This document shows positions 2,318-43,429 of a DNA stretch of 64,000 nucleotides, in pieces. Position 1 is the first letter of the stretch. The number at the start of each line of letters is the position of its first letter. Origin of the DNA: Escherichia phage Bf23; sequence record OR083247.1; one strand, given 5' to 3'. The notes under the pieces were generated by a model, which was not told the DNA's origin, did no database searches, and saw nothing but the letters and a program-made list of their open reading frames with translations. The position numbers and the translations under genes are program-made.

Positions 2318-2323
2318 AAATTT

Positions 2324-2394
2324 TGGCAGGGGTAAAGGTATTCGAAACCTTTTCATGGGTTTTGTAGGCCCATTTGCAACCTATGCGTACCCCA
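2324..2394 (-). tRNA. tRNA-like gene, anticodon unassigned (short, possibly degenerate)
   Basis: CCA encoded, T-arm AAGGT/TTCGAAT/ACCTT, 6-bp acceptor GGGGTA/TACCCC; middle region only 35 nt and no canonical 7-nt anticodon loop resolved. Confidence 0.35.
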
Positions 2395-2403
2395 ATTGTT
2401 AAT

Positions 2404-3526: not shown

Positions 3527-4210
3527 TCATCTATTTTTCTTAATACTTTTAGGATCTTTCCCTGTTAGGGACTTATACCTTTTCCTTAATCCAGTATCAG
3601 ACAATCCTAGTTCTTTGGAGGCACGAATCCAGGAATATTTAGATACCCAGTACTCTATTTGCTCCACAGTAATATCTGGATTTATAGTTATCTCTTTAGG
3701 AGTACATGATTTACAGTGTGTTGCTCTTGAGCTAATTTCGCAGTGACAAATAGCACACGTATTTACAGTCCTTTCTGTATACCTGCCAATATTTTTGCCT
3801 GCATGAGTAGGTGTTAGTGCATGGCAATTTGGGCATAGGAGGGCTAAGTTATCCCATTCATTATTATAGTGATTTCCATCCTTATGTTCAAGTTCTAAAG
3901 GAATTGGTTTATCTAACCAACTTTCTAAGCCACAACTCTCACATTTATGTGGTTTTAGCCCCTCGTTAAGAATTTTATTCTTTAGTTTATAGGAAGAAAT
4001 AGGGCTGCCGTTATATAAATACTCTGTTGCAGACTTATATTTATTATCATACTGCCTATTCGCAGGAATAACTACTATTCCTAGTTTTCCTAAATATGCT
4101 TCCAAAGTGTTCGAGGAGCAGGATAGCATTCTTGCTATCTCTGCTTTAGATTTTCCCTGAGCTATCCACTGAGCTATTTCTTCCTTTCTATCTAGTATAT
4201 CAGTTCTCAT
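3527..4210 (-). CDS. HNH homing endonuclease (227 aa) with N-terminal HTH
   Basis: HNH core ELEHKDGNHYNNEWDNLALLCPNCHA plus additional Cys clusters; free-standing gene beside the tRNA cluster. Confidence 0.75.
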   Translation of the reverse strand: MRTDILDRKEEIAQWIAQGKSKAEIARMLSCSSNTLEAYLGKLGIVVIPANRQYDNKYKSATEYLYNGSPISSYKLKNKILNEGLKPHKCESCGLESWLDKPIPLELEHKDGNHYNNEWDNLALLCPNCHALTPTHAGKNIGRYTERTVNTCAICHCEISSRATHCKSCTPKEITINPDITVEQIEYWVSKYSWIRASKELGLSDTGLRKRYKSLTGKDPKSIKKNR

Positions 4211-4233: not shown

Positions 4234-4272
4234 TGGTGGCTCCCCGAGGATTCGAACCTACATCTTCCACCA
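4234..4272 (-). ncRNA. tRNA-like minihelix (T-arm-like hairpin with encoded CCA)
   Basis: TGG, then stem TGGTGG/CCACCA enclosing a GGATTCGAACC T-loop motif; no partner acceptor strand or anticodon arm found; lies in the ORF-free 4211-4568 region. Confidence 0.3.
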
Positions 4273-4531
4273 GTTACGGCTTGATAATACCAATTATACT
4301 AGGACGGCAGTGTTACTACATAAGTGATTTCCACACCCCACTATTTATAAATTAGAGAAGAGTTTAGGGGAGAGGTTTCAGACGCCCCATTTTATACGTT
4401 CTAGCCACTAACCGGGATTGCCGCCCCCTGTGTACTAGTTTTACAACTAACCCACCGACTCTATTCAGTGCACTCCGGTTGGGATTCTGCACTCAGCGTA
4501 ATCGGCTCGCTGTTCCCTAATTTATGAATAT

Positions 4532-4568: not shown

Positions 4569-5003
4569 TTAGAAAAATTCACTAGCGATCAAAGCAGTTG
4601 TTTTACCGTCATAACGTCCAGGAAATTCTGCCTTAATAGTTTTCATTAATAGAGCTTTGGTAATACCTGGGTTTAATTTAACCAGTTCTGCAAAATACTC
4701 ACGAATTTCAGTTTCAGTCAGTTGACTTGGCTGATACTCTTGCAGCATGGAATAAAGCAGTTGCTCATAGTCCACATCAGTAGGAACTTTCGTACCAACT
4801 TTAATGGCGCGCTGTTTTGCATTTTCTAGAGCCTTAATCTGAGCTTTCAGATAGGCTACAAACTCGATTCGAGTAACAATGTCTTTATCAATACGTTGCA
4901 GGTCGCCAATCATGGTCTGAAGATTAAGTGCCCGCTCTTTATCACCGTGAGTACGTGCTAGACTAAGCAGTCCACGAAGGGTCATTAGGATATTTTCACC
5001 CAT
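4569..5003 (-). CDS. hypothetical protein (144 aa)
   Basis: ORF track. Confidence 0.5.
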   Translation of the reverse strand: MGENILMTLRGLLSLARTHGDKERALNLQTMIGDLQRIDKDIVTRIEFVAYLKAQIKALENAKQRAIKVGTKVPTDVDYEQLLYSMLQEYQPSQLTETEIREYFAELVKLNPGITKALLMKTIKAEFPGRYDGKTTALIASEFF

Positions 5004-5169: not shown

Positions 5170-5859
5170 TCATAAACTACCCCCTTTCTGTACTATTGTG
5201 GCCCCCTCTTTCAAGAGGAATTCTTCTGCCTCTTCGGGGGAAATATTAAAGTATTCAGTAGATCCAGCAAATCCACTATAACCACAATTATGACTTTTAA
5301 AATACATATGTGCCTTCTTCTCTAAAGCAAGGGTTTCTGATTTAGAAGAGCTACCATATGTATAGTGGCCATAATACTTAGCTGTGGGATCCCCGGATGC
5401 AGTAATCAAATCCCTTAACCTACGAGCAGGAGAATTAGTAATTCCTATTTTTGTACCTAATGAACTAGTTATTATATAAAGTATCCCACCATCGCTCCAT
5501 ATATTGGAGCACTCAGGGCATCTATTACCCATATTTTTTATGGCACTAAAAGTGGTAATCCATACATGCCCCTTACTACAAGTAAGTTGTAGCTTAGAGT
5601 TATTATTTATATATTTGGTAATGGTGTAATATCCTAAACTACGCAAATATTCAGATACTTGTTCTTGAGTGTACCTAACATTTCCATAGCAGTAGGGACA
5701 ACCTCTTCCGTTCCTAATATTATTTAGGGTAGCATTAAAAACATGTCCATAGGTGCAACAGAACTGCATTTTAGTCCTAGTATTAGTATACTTATCATTA
5801 GTGAATAAGCCTCTACTAACTAGGTAACTCTCTACTTCTTCTTGTGTTAATTTTTTCAT
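5170..5859 (-). CDS. T5orf172 / GIY-YIG-like domain protein with N-terminal tandem zinc-ribbon repeats (229 aa)
   Basis: Two repeats of C..GH..(N20)..CP(Y/E)C followed by GGILYIIT..KIGITNSPARRLRDL. Confidence 0.55.
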   Translation of the reverse strand: MKKLTQEEVESYLVSRGLFTNDKYTNTRTKMQFCCTYGHVFNATLNNIRNGRGCPYCYGNVRYTQEQVSEYLRSLGYYTITKYINNNSKLQLTCSKGHVWITTFSAIKNMGNRCPECSNIWSDGGILYIITSSLGTKIGITNSPARRLRDLITASGDPTAKYYGHYTYGSSSKSETLALEKKAHMYFKSHNCGYSGFAGSTEYFNISPEEAEEFLLKEGATIVQKGGSL

Positions 5860-5870
5860 TTAATAAATTT

Positions 5871-6338
5871 TTAAGTTTTAGTGACAACAGGTTTATAAAA
5901 CGTATGTCCCTTAATCTTAGTTGTTTTCTTAAACTTCTTTGTCCAGTAAGGTTTATCTTTACCACTATGGAAGTATAAAGCTCCATGTGTAGGATCTTGT
6001 GGTAAATCAACGTAGTATATCACTCTAGCTAAATTCTTGGCGGTTTGCCAAGCCTCATCGGTTTTATCAACTTTTGGCCTCTTAGATACCCAAGAGAACT
6101 GGTTAGACTGATATACTACTTTACAGTAGGAATCTGGAAATTTGCCGGAGTTTACACGGTTTTTAGTAACATGTGCAATCGCCGTCATTCCCTTTATGCC
6201 CTCACCACGACTTTCGAAATAGATATTTTTAGCAATGCAATCTATTTCTTTTGCATCGTGCGATGCCTGACTACTAAAGCTGAAGGTAAGGGCAGCTACT
6301 AAAAGCAAAGCTGCCTTCATTCGTTTTACTCCTGCCAA
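5871..6338 (-). CDS. secreted SleB/CwlJ-like cell-wall hydrolase (155 aa)
   Basis: N-terminal signal peptide (hydrophobic LLLVAALTFSFSSQA), then IYFESRGEG..G..AIAHVTKNR resembling the Hydrolase_2 core. Confidence 0.5.
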   Translation of the reverse strand: MAGVKRMKAALLLVAALTFSFSSQASHDAKEIDCIAKNIYFESRGEGIKGMTAIAHVTKNRVNSGKFPDSYCKVVYQSNQFSWVSKRPKVDKTDEAWQTAKNLARVIYYVDLPQDPTHGALYFHSGKDKPYWTKKFKKTTKIKGHTFYKPVVTKT

Positions 6339-6643
6339 TCGTATTCAATACGATTAGGGTTTTCTTTGTACCCCAAGTCAAGCAAATCATTACGCATAGT
6401 TTGCTTAGCTACGGGATTCGAGGTTACTAGTACCACTTTCTTTGGTCTCTGCCCAAATTCTAAGAGTAAACGAAGAATTTGATAACCTTCCATACCATCT
6501 ACAGCCAAATCGTTATCGAAATAAACAAAATGGCCAGTGGTATCAGTCTTATTCAGAAACTCAACAGCGGCTTCTGGGGTTCGAATGATAATGTCCATTC
6601 CGTGAAGATTACGCACATCATCAATCAAAATGTGAAAAGTCAT
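6326..6643 (-). CDS. CheY-like receiver (REC) domain-like protein (105 aa)
   Basis: HILIDDV .. FDNDL..DGMEGYQILRLL .. VVLVTSN pattern resembles receiver-domain acidic pocket, phosphoacceptor and T/S positions. Confidence 0.4.
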   Translation of the reverse strand: MTFHILIDDVRNLHGMDIIIRTPEAAVEFLNKTDTTGHFVYFDNDLAVDGMEGYQILRLLLEFGQRPKKVVLVTSNPVAKQTMRNDLLDLGYKENPNRIEYDWQE

Positions 6644-6673: not shown

Positions 6674-6702
6674 ATTATACAGAGAACTTAATAAATTAGC
6701 AA
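6674..6702 (-). promoter_or_regulatory. early promoter (-35 TTGCTA, 17-nt spacer, -10 TATAAT)
   Basis: Consensus hexamers upstream of the 6326-6643 gene. Confidence 0.6.
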
Positions 6703-9991: not shown

Positions 9992-10468
9992 TCACATCTC
10001 AGCAAGTTCTTGCTCAGTAATAACTGTATTACATAGTGCATCTACAGCTTCATTACCACTAATTCCTGAGTGCCCTTTTACCTTAATAAAAGTAGGATTA
10101 GTATTGTGGAAGTTAATGTATTGCTGAGTTAATTTAAATGCTTCTTGCCAAAGCTCTAGATTAAGAGGGATTTCACCATCTGCTTTCTTCCAGCCTTTCC
10201 TCTGCCAAGAAAACATCCAACTTTCCATACCATTTTTGCAATAAGCAGAATCAGTATAGATAACAATTGGTCTATTATCTTTTTTAACTGACCAACGTAG
10301 AGCCTCTACAATAGCCGTGAGTTCCATCTCATTATTTGTAGTTTTAGGACTATATCCAGATTTAGAACCTAGACGATCGTCGTTATCATCATAGACAATA
10401 AAACCCCAAGCACCTAAACCCGGATTGCCTTTACATGCACCATCTGTATATATATGAAATGTACTCAT
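9992..10468 (-). CDS. rnh: ribonuclease H
   Basis: IYTDGACKGNPG..TNNEMEL..YTDS..G..W..W..KGH clearly aligns with RNase HI. Confidence 0.85.
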   Translation of the reverse strand: MSTFHIYTDGACKGNPGLGAWGFIVYDDNDDRLGSKSGYSPKTTNNEMELTAIVEALRWSVKKDNRPIVIYTDSAYCKNGMESWMFSWQRKGWKKADGEIPLNLELWQEAFKLTQQYINFHNTNPTFIKVKGHSGISGNEAVDALCNTVITEQELAEM

Positions 10469-11010
10469 CTATTAAGTTCCTCTAATGTAGGATAATAGTT
10501 ATTATAAAATGTTTCTTCTACAGCATCTTTACCATGTAACTCATGTCGCAAGGTATTTGCTTTTAATACGGCGTTCTCTAAATCTAGATATTCGAATATT
10601 CCACCATAAATATTCTTACCCTCACAATTTATTATCTGTACTTGCCACTTTTGTAGCTGTTTATTCCAATGTACTCCTAAGTACCCTGATTTGCTAGAGG
10701 CAGTGCAGTTTCTATTATTAATTTGACTAGTAGATTCTCTTAAATTTTTCCATCTATTATCTGACCGTATACGATTTATATGATCTACTAAGTCAGGAAT
10801 ACTTCCTGTCATATACAGAAATGCCAGTCTATGGGCTAGATAATCTACCTTATCTATTTTTATAGTTATATAACCATCTTTTCTTAAATAGCCAGCAACT
10901 GCTCCGGCTTTACCTCCCCTACCTCTACTTATTTTATTAGTAAATATTCCAGTATCGGGATCATAATTTAGAAGTTCTTTTAATCTCTCTAGTGTCGGTT
11001 GTTTACTCAT
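10465..11010 (-). CDS. HNH endonuclease with AP2-like DNA-binding domain (181 aa)
   Basis: HNH-like DHINRIRSDNRWKNL and AP2-like GYLGVHWNKQLQKWQVQI; sits between rnh and the thyA side. Confidence 0.65.
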   Translation of the reverse strand: MSKQPTLERLKELLNYDPDTGIFTNKISRGRGGKAGAVAGYLRKDGYITIKIDKVDYLAHRLAFLYMTGSIPDLVDHINRIRSDNRWKNLRESTSQINNRNCTASSKSGYLGVHWNKQLQKWQVQIINCEGKNIYGGIFEYLDLENAVLKANTLRHELHGKDAVEETFYNNYYPTLEELNR

Positions 11011-11386
11011 CCAACCATCCTATGTCTATACTAAGTAATGCTTTTATTCCTGTAATACCTGTACCATAAGTATTATATCGAATAGCACTTCTGCTCTTTA
11101 CTTCAAGTATATTTTCATGCTCTGTATTTTCTAGAATTTCTGTAGATATACCTAAATATCCTGATTGATCTTCCTCGTCCCAACCCATATCTTCTAGAAG
11201 ATTTAGACGTAATTCTACCTTCTCATCTCCATTGCCTACAGAGTAGTAGTCTTCTAAAGTCCTGAATTTAGAAGTGATAGAGTCTAGTATTAATAATATC
11301 TGTTCCTTAGTAATAGTTTCTTTATCGCCATGCAAGTAATTGGAGTAATTCAGAAGGGCTTGTTCTAATTCAATTTCTTTACTCAT
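11003..11386 (-). CDS. hypothetical acidic protein (127 aa)
   Basis: ORF track; strongly D/E-rich. Confidence 0.5.
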   Translation of the reverse strand: MSKEIELEQALLNYSNYLHGDKETITKEQILLILDSITSKFRTLEDYYSVGNGDEKVELRLNLLEDMGWDEEDQSGYLGISTEILENTEHENILEVKSRSAIRYNTYGTGITGIKALLSIDIGWLDE

Positions 11387-11485
11387 TTTATTATCCTTTT
11401 GTACTTATTGAGTATATTATACTTAAAATTTCACTAAATAAGCAAATGAAATTTTAAATATAATAGCCCCGAAGGGCTATTTAAT

Positions 11486-42946: not shown

Positions 42947-43429
42947 ATGGCTGTAGATAGTAGAGATAAAGGTAAACGTGGTGAATATCAGGTAAGAGAT
43001 ATTCTACGTGAGCGTACAGGTCTTGAGTGGGAACGTGTTCCTGGCTCTGGTGCTTTTGGCCAGAGCCACGGACTGAAAGGTGACATCTACCTTCCACCAC
43101 AAAGTGGACACATTAGTAAATACTGCTTCGAAGTTAAGTGGTATAAAGATGATAATATATCAAGTAATTTATTTAATGTTGGTGAATCCACTCTAGAGAA
43201 GTGGTGGCAGCAGTGCTCACGTGAAGGTGAGCAGATGAACTCCAAACCTGCATTAATATTCAAAAAAGACAGAGGACAGTGGTTAATAGCTTTGGATAGC
43301 TCAGACCCGATGGTTGACAACTTAATGAGTCGTACCCATATGGTGTTAAATAAGAAAGGCATGGAAATCGTAATCGGTTTATTTGAGCCGTGGCTACATA
43401 ATGCATCTGTTGAGGACTTAATTAAATAA
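42947..43429 (+). CDS. hypothetical protein (D14-position, 160 aa), possibly nuclease-like
   Basis: ORF between the SbcC-like gene and the flap endonuclease. Confidence 0.5.
   Translation: MAVDSRDKGKRGEYQVRDILRERTGLEWERVPGSGAFGQSHGLKGDIYLPPQSGHISKYCFEVKWYKDDNISSNLFNVGESTLEKWWQQCSREGEQMNSKPALIFKKDRGQWLIALDSSDPMVDNLMSRTHMVLNKKGMEIVIGLFEPWLHNASVEDLIK

What the first reader, a model, noticed from the sequence alone, without database searches (positions are those of the whole stretch)
5871..6338. Secreted SleB/CwlJ-like cell-wall hydrolase encoded in the early region
The ORF has an N-terminal signal peptide followed by a segment resembling the catalytic core of SleB/CwlJ-type peptidoglycan hydrolases. 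It is separate from any lysis cassette seen in this window. An early, exported peptidoglycan hydrolase could act in entry, superinfection exclusion or periplasmic remodelling.
Basis: inference. Interest (0 to 1): 0.5.

Follow-up and report, generated by a model that had tools for sequence, protein, structure and literature searches.

The report
Exported SleB-type wall hydrolase of T5
This is the already-annotated T5.083 gene of T5-like phages: a small wall-cutting enzyme with an export signal that is strongly conserved, has never been tested experimentally, and is most likely a second lysis enzyme.

Summary
It has a textbook Sec signal peptide (MKAALLLVAALTFSFSSQA|SHD) followed by a full-length Hydrolase_2 (SleB/CwlJ-type) domain: Pfam 89.7 bits against a cut-off of 27. 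The AlphaFold model (pLDDT 92) matches only SleB catalytic domains in the PDB. The catalytic Glu (E36) is invariant in 41 homologues.

The window is a T5-like phage. The gene is the orthologue of T5.083 (97% identity) and is 100% identical to deposited proteins already named 'SleB putative cell wall hydrolase'. About 440 phage records carry it. Mature-domain dN/dS is 0.06-0.10, and one lineage swapped in an unrelated signal peptide, so export itself appears to be selected.

The canonical T5 lysis cassette (holin, M15 endolysin, spanins) is not in the window; it lies about 22 kb away in T5, also in the early region. The most likely role is a holin-independent, periplasm-preloaded lytic transglycosylase that assists lysis. 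This is inferred, not shown. A non-lysis periplasmic role is not excluded. The gene, its annotation and its distance from the holin are already published, so novelty and interest are low.

The parts
5871..6320 (-). CDS of 149 aa plus stop; orthologue of T5.083 (exported SleB-type cell-wall hydrolase)
   Evidence: ORF. 97.3% identical to T5.083 over 149/149 aa. 100% identical to proteins of T5_ev219 and EH4. Pfam Hydrolase_2 89.7 bits. PHROG 938 'endolysin', E = 5.5e-30.
6264..6320 (-). Codons 1-19: predicted cleavable Sec signal peptide MKAALLLVAALTFSFSSQA, with cleavage predicted after SQA
   Evidence: n-h-c layout; Kyte-Doolittle maximum 2.61 over 11 residues; no Gly in the h-region; small residues at -3 and -1; no lipobox. 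The pattern is kept in diverged homologues while the sequence is not. Not run through SignalP.
5874..6263 (-). Mature domain (130 aa, about 15 kDa, pI 9.7) with the SleB/CwlJ catalytic fold and a Lys-rich C-terminus
   Evidence: Pfam covers residues 39-142. phmmer hits 4F55 and 4FET. AF2 pLDDT 92, and Foldseek finds only SleB catalytic domains, TMt 0.71-0.80. pI and charge. dN/dS 0.06-0.10.
6213..6215 (-). Codon GAA for Glu36, the predicted catalytic glutamate in YFESRGE
   Evidence: Aligns with the E of 'YGESRGE' in SleB 4F55/4FET. Invariant in 41 homologues. The glutamate is essential in SleB and in a SleB-fold T6SS toxin (PMC12331253; PMC11148199). The exact residue equivalence is by alignment only.
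6329..6333 (-). Shine-Dalgarno AGGAG, 8 nt upstream of the ATG, immediately before the stop codon of the upstream gene
   Evidence: Read directly from the sequence. The upstream ORF's stop is at 6326-6328, leaving a 5-nt gap to the ATG.
6326..6643 (-). Upstream gene, probably co-transcribed (T5.084 orthologue; cREC_REC domain). Context only; no functional link is shown.
   Evidence: 99% identical to T5.084. Pfam PF20274, 55.5 bits.
6674..6702 (-). Sigma-70 promoter-like site TTGCTA-17-TATAAT upstream of the T5.084/T5.083 pair
   Evidence: Consensus scan, 10/12 matches. It falls where the T5 record annotates a promoter (T5 43067-43141). The scan as a whole is not enriched over shuffles.

Best explanation
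The ORF encodes the T5.083 protein of a T5-like phage.

Shown or strongly supported:
- It is a 149-aa precursor with a cleavable Sec-type signal peptide.
- The mature part is a basic, single-domain protein of about 15 kDa with the SleB/CwlJ (Hydrolase_2) lytic-transglycosylase fold.
- The catalytic glutamate is intact.
- The gene is under strong purifying selection.

Inferred:
- It is transcribed with T5.084 from a sigma-70 early promoter.
- It is exported by Sec into the periplasm, independently of the holin.
- It is possibly stabilised there by a C28-C66 disulfide.
- It cuts the MurNAc-GlcNAc bonds of ordinary E. coli/Salmonella peptidoglycan.
- Its most likely role is a pre-positioned accessory lysis enzyme. 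It would attack glycan strands, complementing the cytoplasmic, holin-dependent L-Ala-D-Glu peptidase Lys (T5.040). It would become destructive when holin triggering collapses the membrane potential and wall synthesis stops.
- It is probably dispensable in the laboratory.
For: Identity: (Hydrolase_2 89.7 bits; the only PDB matches are SleB catalytic domains). E36 is invariant, along with Y34, R55, Q74 and H139.

Export: the n-h-c signal with an SQA|S site. Most of the 41 aligned homologues carry a hydrophobic N-terminus of different sequence. The Epseptimavirus SE3 orthologue has an unrelated signal peptide on a mature domain with dN about 0.045. C28 and C66 are present in every homologue that spans them, but are absent at the aligned positions of cytoplasm-made Bacillus SleB.

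Selection: dN/dS is 0.06-0.10 in the mature domain. The gene is found in 440 phage records.

Activity on Gram-negative walls: the rV5-like CB7_83 (SleB-like, with a signal peptide) is toxic in E. coli, and CR3_087 is implicated in lysis (PMC7344957). A SleB-fold T6SS effector rounds and bursts E. coli, and mutating its glutamate abolishes this (PMC11148199).

Family use: Hydrolase_2 is a common catalytic domain of lysins from Gram-negative phages, and these have high positive charge (PMC8223927). The mature protein here has pI 9.7 and a C-terminal 30-mer with 10 K/R against 1 D/E.

The canonical Lys is a peptidase, so the two bond specificities are complementary (PMC10487532, PMC8140593).
Against: There is no experimental datum on T5.083 itself; a full-text search for 'T5.083' found nothing. 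The gene is not next to the holin, endolysin or spanins. Its neighbours are unrelated: cREC_REC, a homing endonuclease and DUF7616.

A translational knock-down screen of T5 scored T5.083 'Not Fit' (PMC11879866 supplement). This fits dispensability but equally fits no role in lysis. That screen is low-recall: 17 Fit genes in T5, and it misses the T4 endolysin e.

Bacillus SleB needs muramic-delta-lactam (my knowledge), which E. coli lacks, so activity on ordinary peptidoglycan is assumed by analogy. What would keep a free periplasmic transglycosylase harmless until lysis is not known. Signal-peptide cleavage was not predicted with a trained tool. The C28-C66 distance could not be measured, because model coordinates are not returned.
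Confidence: 0.5

Rival explanations
1. A non-lysis periplasmic role early in infection. The exported transglycosylase would remodel or loosen the sacculus. Possible purposes are interfering with DNA injection by superinfecting phages, altering cell growth or shape, or generating anhydromuropeptides. Final lysis would be left to holin, Lys and spanins.
For: The gene sits in an early-promoter operon away from the lysis genes. Relatives in other large virulent phages also lie in early or nucleotide-metabolism modules rather than next to holins: beside rIIA/rIIB in EmilHeitz, among ligase, dCMP deaminase and phosphohydrolases in PAK_P1, and beside Metallophos/ThyX in metagenomic phage contigs. Conservation is strong despite apparent dispensability in the laboratory.
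Against: No phenotype or partner gene points to exclusion or remodelling. T5 already has Llp for exclusion (listed as such in the table). The T5 canonical lysis genes are also 'early', so position does not discriminate. The closest functionally commented relatives are linked to lysis or toxicity.
Confidence: 0.25
2. A membrane-tethered (SAR-type or signal-anchored) endolysin. The N-terminal hydrophobic segment would not be cleaved, and would hold the enzyme inactive at the inner membrane until depolarisation releases it.
For: N-terminal signals predicted in lysins of Gram-negative phages are often read as SAR domains (PMC8223927). The PAK_P1 relative has a longer N-terminal hydrophobic segment preceded by an acidic residue. 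Tethering would neatly explain latency.
Against: The uncharged run is only 15 residues, Leu/Phe-rich with no Gly. It is followed by a canonical small-x-small site (SQA|S, SHA|T, AYA|T, SYA|S in orthologues). SAR domains are longer and rich in Gly/Ala/Ser (my knowledge of P1 Lyz and phage 21 R).
Confidence: 0.12
3. A virion-associated entry lysin that opens the wall for DNA injection.
For: Hydrolase_2 domains do occur inside proteins of more than 1000 aa in some phages (Rhizobium phage Palo, Agrobacterium phage Atu_ph03).
Against: This is a free 149-aa protein with a Sec signal, encoded in the early region and not among the late structural genes. Virion proteomics of AKFV33 did not list it, but only 4 proteins were identified there. 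A periplasmic protein cannot join cytoplasmic virion assembly.
Confidence: 0.03
4. A catalytically inert or decaying remnant: a peptidoglycan-binding protein or a gene on its way out.
For: 'Not Fit' in the T5 knock-down screen. A 96-aa truncated copy exists in one Klebsiella phage record (P0033).
Against: dN/dS is 0.06-0.10. The catalytic Glu and 9 other positions are invariant. The gene is full length in T5, Epseptimavirus and Sugarlandvirus (153 aa in vB_Kpn_B01).
Confidence: 0.03

Closest known systems
T5.083 (YP_006911) and its orthologues in Tequintavirus, Epseptimavirus and Sugarlandvirus, annotated 'cell wall hydrolase SleB', 'spore cortex-lytic enzyme precursor' or 'endolysin'
   Same: Same gene. 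97.3% identical to T5.083 and 100% identical to the T5_ev219 and EH4 proteins. Same position between the T5.084 and T5.082 orthologues. Same length and start.
   Different: Four substitutions relative to T5. In this window a 229-aa GIY-YIG/T5orf172 homing-endonuclease ORF is inserted directly downstream.
Bacillus SleB (catalytic domain, PDB 4F55 and 4FET) and CwlJ, the germination-specific cortex-lytic enzymes
   Same: Same fold (TMt 0.71-0.80, rmsd 2.4-2.9 A) and 28-31% identity. Same E-x-R-G-E catalytic motif with the glutamate conserved. CwlJ is likewise single-domain (PMC12331253).
   Different: No N-terminal PG_binding_1 domain. The score is far below the SleB equivalog cut-off (50 against 236.5 bits). 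There is no YpeB-like partner nearby. The substrate cannot contain muramic-delta-lactam. A Cys pair (C28/C66) is present that Bacillus SleB lacks at the aligned positions.
SleB-like, signal-peptide-bearing hydrolases of Vequintavirinae (rV5-like) phages, e.g. CB7_83, CR3_087 and EmilHeitz bas49_0065
   Same: Single Hydrolase_2 domain behind an N-terminal signal peptide, about 41% identity over the core, encoded outside a classical lysis cassette. Reported toxic in E. coli or implicated in lysis (PMC7344957).
   Different: In those phages it is treated as the likely main endolysin. T5-like phages also carry a characterised holin-linked M15 peptidase. The C66-equivalent Cys is absent in EmilHeitz.
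Secreted (Sec-dependent) endolysins such as Lys44 of Oenococcus phage fOg44, and SAR endolysins (P1 Lyz, phage 21 R) (from my knowledge)
   Same: Holin-independent export of a muralytic enzyme, with activity thought to be unleashed on membrane depolarisation. This is the working model proposed here.
   Different: Different catalytic families. Latency and triggering are undemonstrated for T5.083. The N-terminus here looks cleavable rather than SAR-like.
SleB-fold T6SS effector T6EC3 (PMC11148199)
   Same: A SleB-like fold acting in the Gram-negative periplasm, dependent on the equivalent glutamate.
   Different: It was found by structure rather than sequence. It is delivered by T6SS and paired with an immunity protein. 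No immunity-like partner is seen next to T5.083.

Membership tests
Pfam PF07486 Hydrolase_2 (SleB/CwlJ-type cell-wall hydrolase domain) | Score above the curated gathering threshold, over the whole domain | tested here: met
   89.7 bits against 27; profile positions 1-100 of 100 on residues 39-142.
Pfam PF07486 Hydrolase_2 (SleB/CwlJ-type cell-wall hydrolase domain) | Conserved catalytic glutamate in the E-x-R-G-E motif | tested here: met
   E36 aligns to the E of YGESRGE in 4F55/4FET and is invariant in 41 homologues.
Pfam PF07486 Hydrolase_2 (SleB/CwlJ-type cell-wall hydrolase domain) | SleB catalytic-domain fold | tested here: met
   AF2 model pLDDT 92, pTM 0.84. Foldseek against the PDB returns only 4F55 and 4FET below E = 1e-3, TMt 0.71-0.80.
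Pfam PF07486 Hydrolase_2 (SleB/CwlJ-type cell-wall hydrolase domain) | Lytic transglycosylase activity (1,6-anhydroMurNAc products) | not testable with these tools
   Needs purified protein, sacculi and muropeptide analysis.
SleB proper (NCBIfam TIGR02869 equivalog, spore cortex-lytic enzyme) | Equivalog score cut-off | tested here: not met
   50.3 bits against 236.5; only profile positions 79-201 are matched.
SleB proper (NCBIfam TIGR02869 equivalog, spore cortex-lytic enzyme) | N-terminal peptidoglycan-binding domain and a YpeB partner | tested here: not met
   Hydrolase_2 is the only Pfam hit in the 149-aa protein. Neighbours are cREC_REC, GIY-YIG/T5orf172, DUF7616 and YqeY-like.
Sec/SPase I cleavable signal peptide | Positive n-region, hydrophobic h-region of 7-15 residues, small residues at -3 and -1, no lipobox, no twin-arginine | tested here: met
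   M-K / AALLLVAALTFSF / SSQA|SH; first Cys at residue 28. The pattern is kept in orthologues with different sequences, and SE3 has a swapped signal. This is rule-based only.
Sec/SPase I cleavable signal peptide | Prediction by a trained tool (SignalP/LipoP) and experimental cleavage and export | not testable with these tools
   No such tool is available here; it needs PhoA/BlaM fusions or N-terminal mass spectrometry.
Canonical holin-endolysin lysis cassette member | Adjacency to holin and spanin genes | tested here: not met
   tblastn with T5 Lys, holin and both spanins finds nothing in the window. In T5 they lie at 19.9-23.2 kb, against 42.3 kb for T5.083.
Canonical holin-endolysin lysis cassette member | Required for host lysis | not testable with these tools
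   The only indirect datum is 'Not Fit' in the CRISPRi-ART T5 screen. That screen also scores T5 lys 'Not Fit' and misses T4 e.
SAR (signal-anchor-release) endolysin | Long, weakly hydrophobic, Gly/Ala/Ser-rich N-terminal segment without a signal-peptidase site | tested here: not met
   15-residue uncharged run, 0 Gly, Leu/Phe-rich, followed by SQA|S. The criterion itself is from my knowledge of P1 Lyz and phage 21 R.

The most novel reading that the evidence does not exclude
T5.083 is not a lysis enzyme at all. It would be an early, Sec-exported peptidoglycan-remodelling factor acting in the periplasm during infection, for example to block injection by competing phages or to reshape the sacculus. 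That would explain two findings: Hydrolase_2 genes with export signals recur in early or nucleotide-metabolism modules of several unrelated large virulent phages, and export is kept even when the signal peptide is swapped.
Probability: 0.15. Interest if true: 0.5.

Novelty: already known. Interest (0 to 1): 0.2.

Why it matters
T5 is a classic model phage, and T5-like phages are widely proposed for biocontrol. All of them keep a second wall-degrading enzyme that is exported and under strong purifying selection, and nobody has tested it. Two papers explicitly leave open which 'endolysin' these phages use (PMC11180984, PMC3326045).

If it is an accessory lysis enzyme delivered without the holin, it would add a Gram-negative example to secreted endolysins. 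It would also offer a small, basic, single-domain transglycosylase as an enzybiotic scaffold. As it stands this is an ordinary, correctly annotated gene, and the scan finding adds no new kind of system.

Tried and rejected
- A full-text search for 'T5.083' found nothing. The Li 2012 and Jing 2012 SleB structure papers are not held, so the catalytic-Glu statement rests on secondary citations plus alignment.
- I looked for expression data in the Bas33 (Tequintavirus) omics supplements and found no hit. HIDEN-SEQ and phage Tn-seq papers do not cover T5-like phages.
- In the CRISPRi-ART screen the holin is Fit but both lys and T5.083 are Not Fit. I considered reading this as evidence that the two hydrolases are redundant, and rejected it. 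The same screen misses the essential T4 endolysin e and calls only 17 T5 genes Fit.
- I considered that Klebsiella T5-like phages carry a truncated, decaying copy, based on tblastn coverage of 1-119 and the 96-aa P0033. I rejected this because vB_Kpn_B01 has a full 153-aa ORF with a diverged C-terminus.
- I wanted the C28-C66 distance in the AF2 model to test the disulfide idea. Coordinates are not returned, so it stays an inference.
- I looked for a conserved partner or immunity gene. Neighbours differ between T5, SE3, Sugarlandvirus and this window, so none was found.
- The promoter scan is not enriched over shuffles (7 found, 9.9 expected). Only the site that coincides with the T5-annotated promoter is used.

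Full report
**What is there.** The mechanical ORF 5871-6338 lies on the minus strand. Its TTG start is almost certainly not used. An ATG at 6320-6318 sits 8 nt downstream of AGGAG (6333-6329), and that AGGAG immediately precedes the stop codon (6328-6326) of the upstream gene. The resulting 149-aa protein has the same start and length as annotated T5.083.

It begins MKAALLLVAALTFSFSSQA|SHDAKE. That is one Lys, then a 15-residue uncharged Leu/Phe-rich stretch without Gly, then small residues at -3 and -1. There is no Cys before residue 28 and no twin-arginine. Residues 39-142 match Pfam Hydrolase_2 over the whole profile: E = 2.2e-25, 89.7 bits against a cut-off of 27. PHROGs places it in phrog_938 'endolysin'.

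**Where it comes from.** The region is 92-97% identical to many T5-like phages (Demerecviridae: Tequintavirus and Epseptimavirus).
- The protein is 100% identical to proteins of Escherichia phage T5_ev219, where it is annotated 'SleB putative cell wall hydrolase', and of Salmonella phage EH4. It is 97.3% identical to T5.083.
- 440 phage records carry the gene at the nucleotide level.
- In T5 it lies at 42.3-42.7 kb, in the early region between the tRNA cluster and the nucleotide-metabolism genes, and is flanked by annotated sigma-70 promoters.
- A TTGCTA-17-TATAAT site at 6702-6674 (-) coincides with the T5-annotated promoter upstream of T5.084.
- The upstream gene (6326-6643, T5.084 orthologue) carries a cREC_REC domain and ends 5 nt before the ATG, so the two are probably co-transcribed and translationally coupled.

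**Family membership.**
- phmmer against PDB sequences finds only the SleB catalytic domains of B. cereus (4F55) and B. anthracis (4FET). YFESRGE aligns to YGESRGE.
- An AlphaFold2 model built on 41 homologues is confident (pLDDT 92, pTM 0.84). Foldseek against the PDB returns only those SleB entries below E = 1e-3, with TMt 0.71-0.80.
- In the 41-sequence alignment, E36 is invariant, together with Y34, G44, R55, C66, V68, V69, Q74, H139 and F141.
- The glutamate is reported as essential for SleB's lytic transglycosylase activity (PMC12331253). It is also essential for the toxicity of a SleB-fold T6SS effector in E. coli (PMC11148199).

The protein is not SleB proper. It scores 50 bits against the equivalog cut-off of 236.5, it lacks the N-terminal peptidoglycan-binding domain, and it has no YpeB-like neighbour. 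It is best described as a single-domain, CwlJ-sized Hydrolase_2 enzyme.

**Evidence that export matters.**
- Most of the 81 relatives found in the large protein collection carry a hydrophobic N-terminus. The sequence varies while the n-h-c pattern and small-x-small sites persist: SHA|T, AYA|T, SYA|S, VQA|Q, AIA|S.
- Pairwise Nei-Gojobori estimates give dN/dS of 0.06-0.10 for the mature domain between Tequintavirus and Epseptimavirus copies.
- The SE3 orthologue carries an entirely different signal peptide (MLKVLLLLATTISSLPAYA) on an otherwise conserved mature domain. That is what one expects if export, not a particular sequence, is selected.
- Two cysteines (C28 and C66) are present in every homologue that spans those columns. 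At the aligned positions Bacillus SleB has Leu and Ser. A periplasmic disulfide is a reasonable inference, but I could not measure the distance.
- The mature protein is basic (pI 9.7) with a Lys-rich C-terminus. This is a trait reported for Hydrolase_2 lysins of Gram-negative phages (PMC8223927).

**Relation to lysis genes.** tblastn with T5 Lys (T5.040), holin (T5.041) and the two spanins finds nothing in the window. In T5 they lie at 19.9-23.2 kb, about 22 kb from T5.083. However, the canonical lysis genes are themselves in the early region (PMC3326045), so position says little about function. The canonical endolysin EndoT5 is an L-alanoyl-D-glutamate peptidase. A glycan-strand-cleaving enzyme would therefore be complementary to it.

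**What is already published.**
- The AKFV33 genome paper listed 'lysozyme, holin and cell wall hydrolase SleB' in the early region in 2012.
- A 2024 paper on Salmonella phages noted endolysin-like ORFs with a SleB domain 'far from holin', and left open which endolysin these phages use (PMC11180984).
- For rV5-like phages, the SleB-like CB7_83 was reported to have a signal peptide and to be toxic when expressed in E. coli. The homologue CR3_087 is cited there as implicated in lysis (PMC7344957).
- In the genome-wide dCas13d knock-down screen of T5, T5.083 is 'Not Fit' (PMC11879866 supplement). The holin is Fit and lys is Not Fit. The screen calls only 17 T5 genes Fit and misses the T4 endolysin e. 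I therefore take it only as weak support for dispensability in the laboratory, and not as evidence for redundancy.

**Context in other phages.** Relatives with export signals lie in early or metabolic modules rather than beside holins:
- in Vequintavirus EmilHeitz, directly upstream of rIIA/rIIB;
- in Pakpunavirus PAK_P1, among DNA ligase, dCMP deaminase and phosphohydrolases;
- in two metagenomic phage contigs of 85-95 kb, beside Metallophos, ThyX and dGTP_diPhyd_N genes.

Some of these may be distant relatives of T5, so the recurrence is not clearly independent. The BFVD search shows the fold is widespread in phages. It occurs as small free proteins and, in a few cases, inside virion-sized proteins of more than 1000 aa.

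**Mechanism.**
- Shown or strongly supported: a real, selected gene encoding a Hydrolase_2 enzyme with an intact active-site glutamate behind a signal-peptide-like N-terminus.
- Inferred: early sigma-70 transcription with T5.084; Sec export and cleavage after A19; a C28-C66 disulfide; lytic transglycosylase action on ordinary peptidoglycan.
- Proposed role (about 0.5): an accessory enzyme loaded into the periplasm ahead of lysis, which speeds breakdown of the sacculus once the holin fires, alongside the holin-dependent peptidase.
- Rivals: an early non-lysis remodelling or exclusion role (about 0.25); a membrane-tethered SAR-like enzyme (about 0.12); a virion entry lysin or an inert remnant (about 0.03 each).

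**Verdict.** The feature is a known, already annotated gene of a classic phage family, so novelty is 'already known' and interest is low. The only open question is its biological role, which needs simple genetics and biochemistry rather than more sequence analysis.

Noticed in passing
window 5173-5859 (-): A 229-aa ORF with treble-clef zinc-finger (DUF4379), CapR, and T5orf172/MUG113/GIY-YIG-like domains, i.e. a free-standing homing-endonuclease-type gene. It is inserted 11 nt downstream of the hydrolase gene, between the T5.083 and T5.082 orthologues. It is absent from T5 and T5_ev219, and the spot is annotated as a putative homing endonuclease in HMD-P5 and SelmaRatti. The insertion lands in the region where T5 annotates promoter P-D/E 33.
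   Followed up: partly
window ~4269-4514: Relative to T5, about 4.4 kb is missing here (T5 37.1-41.6 kb). The missing stretch covers tRNA-Ile2, tRNA-Ser3, T5.076-T5.080 including the 315-aa lipoprotein, tRNA-Arg and stable RNAX. The hegA orthologue (3527-4210) is thereby brought close to the T5.081 orthologue.
   Followed up: partly
window 2318-2403 (-): An 86-nt slot between tRNA-Glu and tRNA-Phe, where the collinear T5_ev219 record annotates tRNA-Trp. Here it is called neither by ARAGORN nor by Rfam at gathering threshold.
   Followed up: no
L006 (Salmonella phage SE3) 1968-2950: The SE3 orthologue has a completely different signal peptide on a conserved mature domain, and about 530 nt of extra unannotated sequence between the T5.084 orthologue and the hydrolase gene. 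This looks like a recombinational swap of the 5' module that preserved export.
   Followed up: partly
window 6326-6643 (-): The upstream, translationally coupled gene (T5.084 orthologue) carries a cREC_REC 'cyclic-phosphate processing receiver' domain (55.5 bits). The CRISPRi-ART supplement text lists T5.084 among Fit genes of unknown function, but its table says 'Not Fit'.
   Followed up: no
window 4572-5003 (-): The T5.081 orthologue (weak YqeY-like hit, below the Pfam cut-off) is only 60% identical to T5.081. Its neighbours are 97-100% identical to their T5 counterparts, so this is a locally divergent, mosaic segment.
   Followed up: no
window 10459-11413: About 950 nt are present here and in T5_ev219, where the collinear region includes an annotated HNH homing endonuclease, but are absent from T5 at this position. 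This may be another mobile-endonuclease polymorphism.
   Followed up: no
L012 (EmilHeitz) 2402-2902; L013 (PAK_P1) 2321-2881; L008, L009: Export-signal-bearing Hydrolase_2 genes in other large virulent phages also sit in early or nucleotide-metabolism modules rather than by holins: next to rIIA/rIIB; among ligase, dCMP deaminase and phosphohydrolases; next to Metallophos and ThyX.
   Followed up: partly
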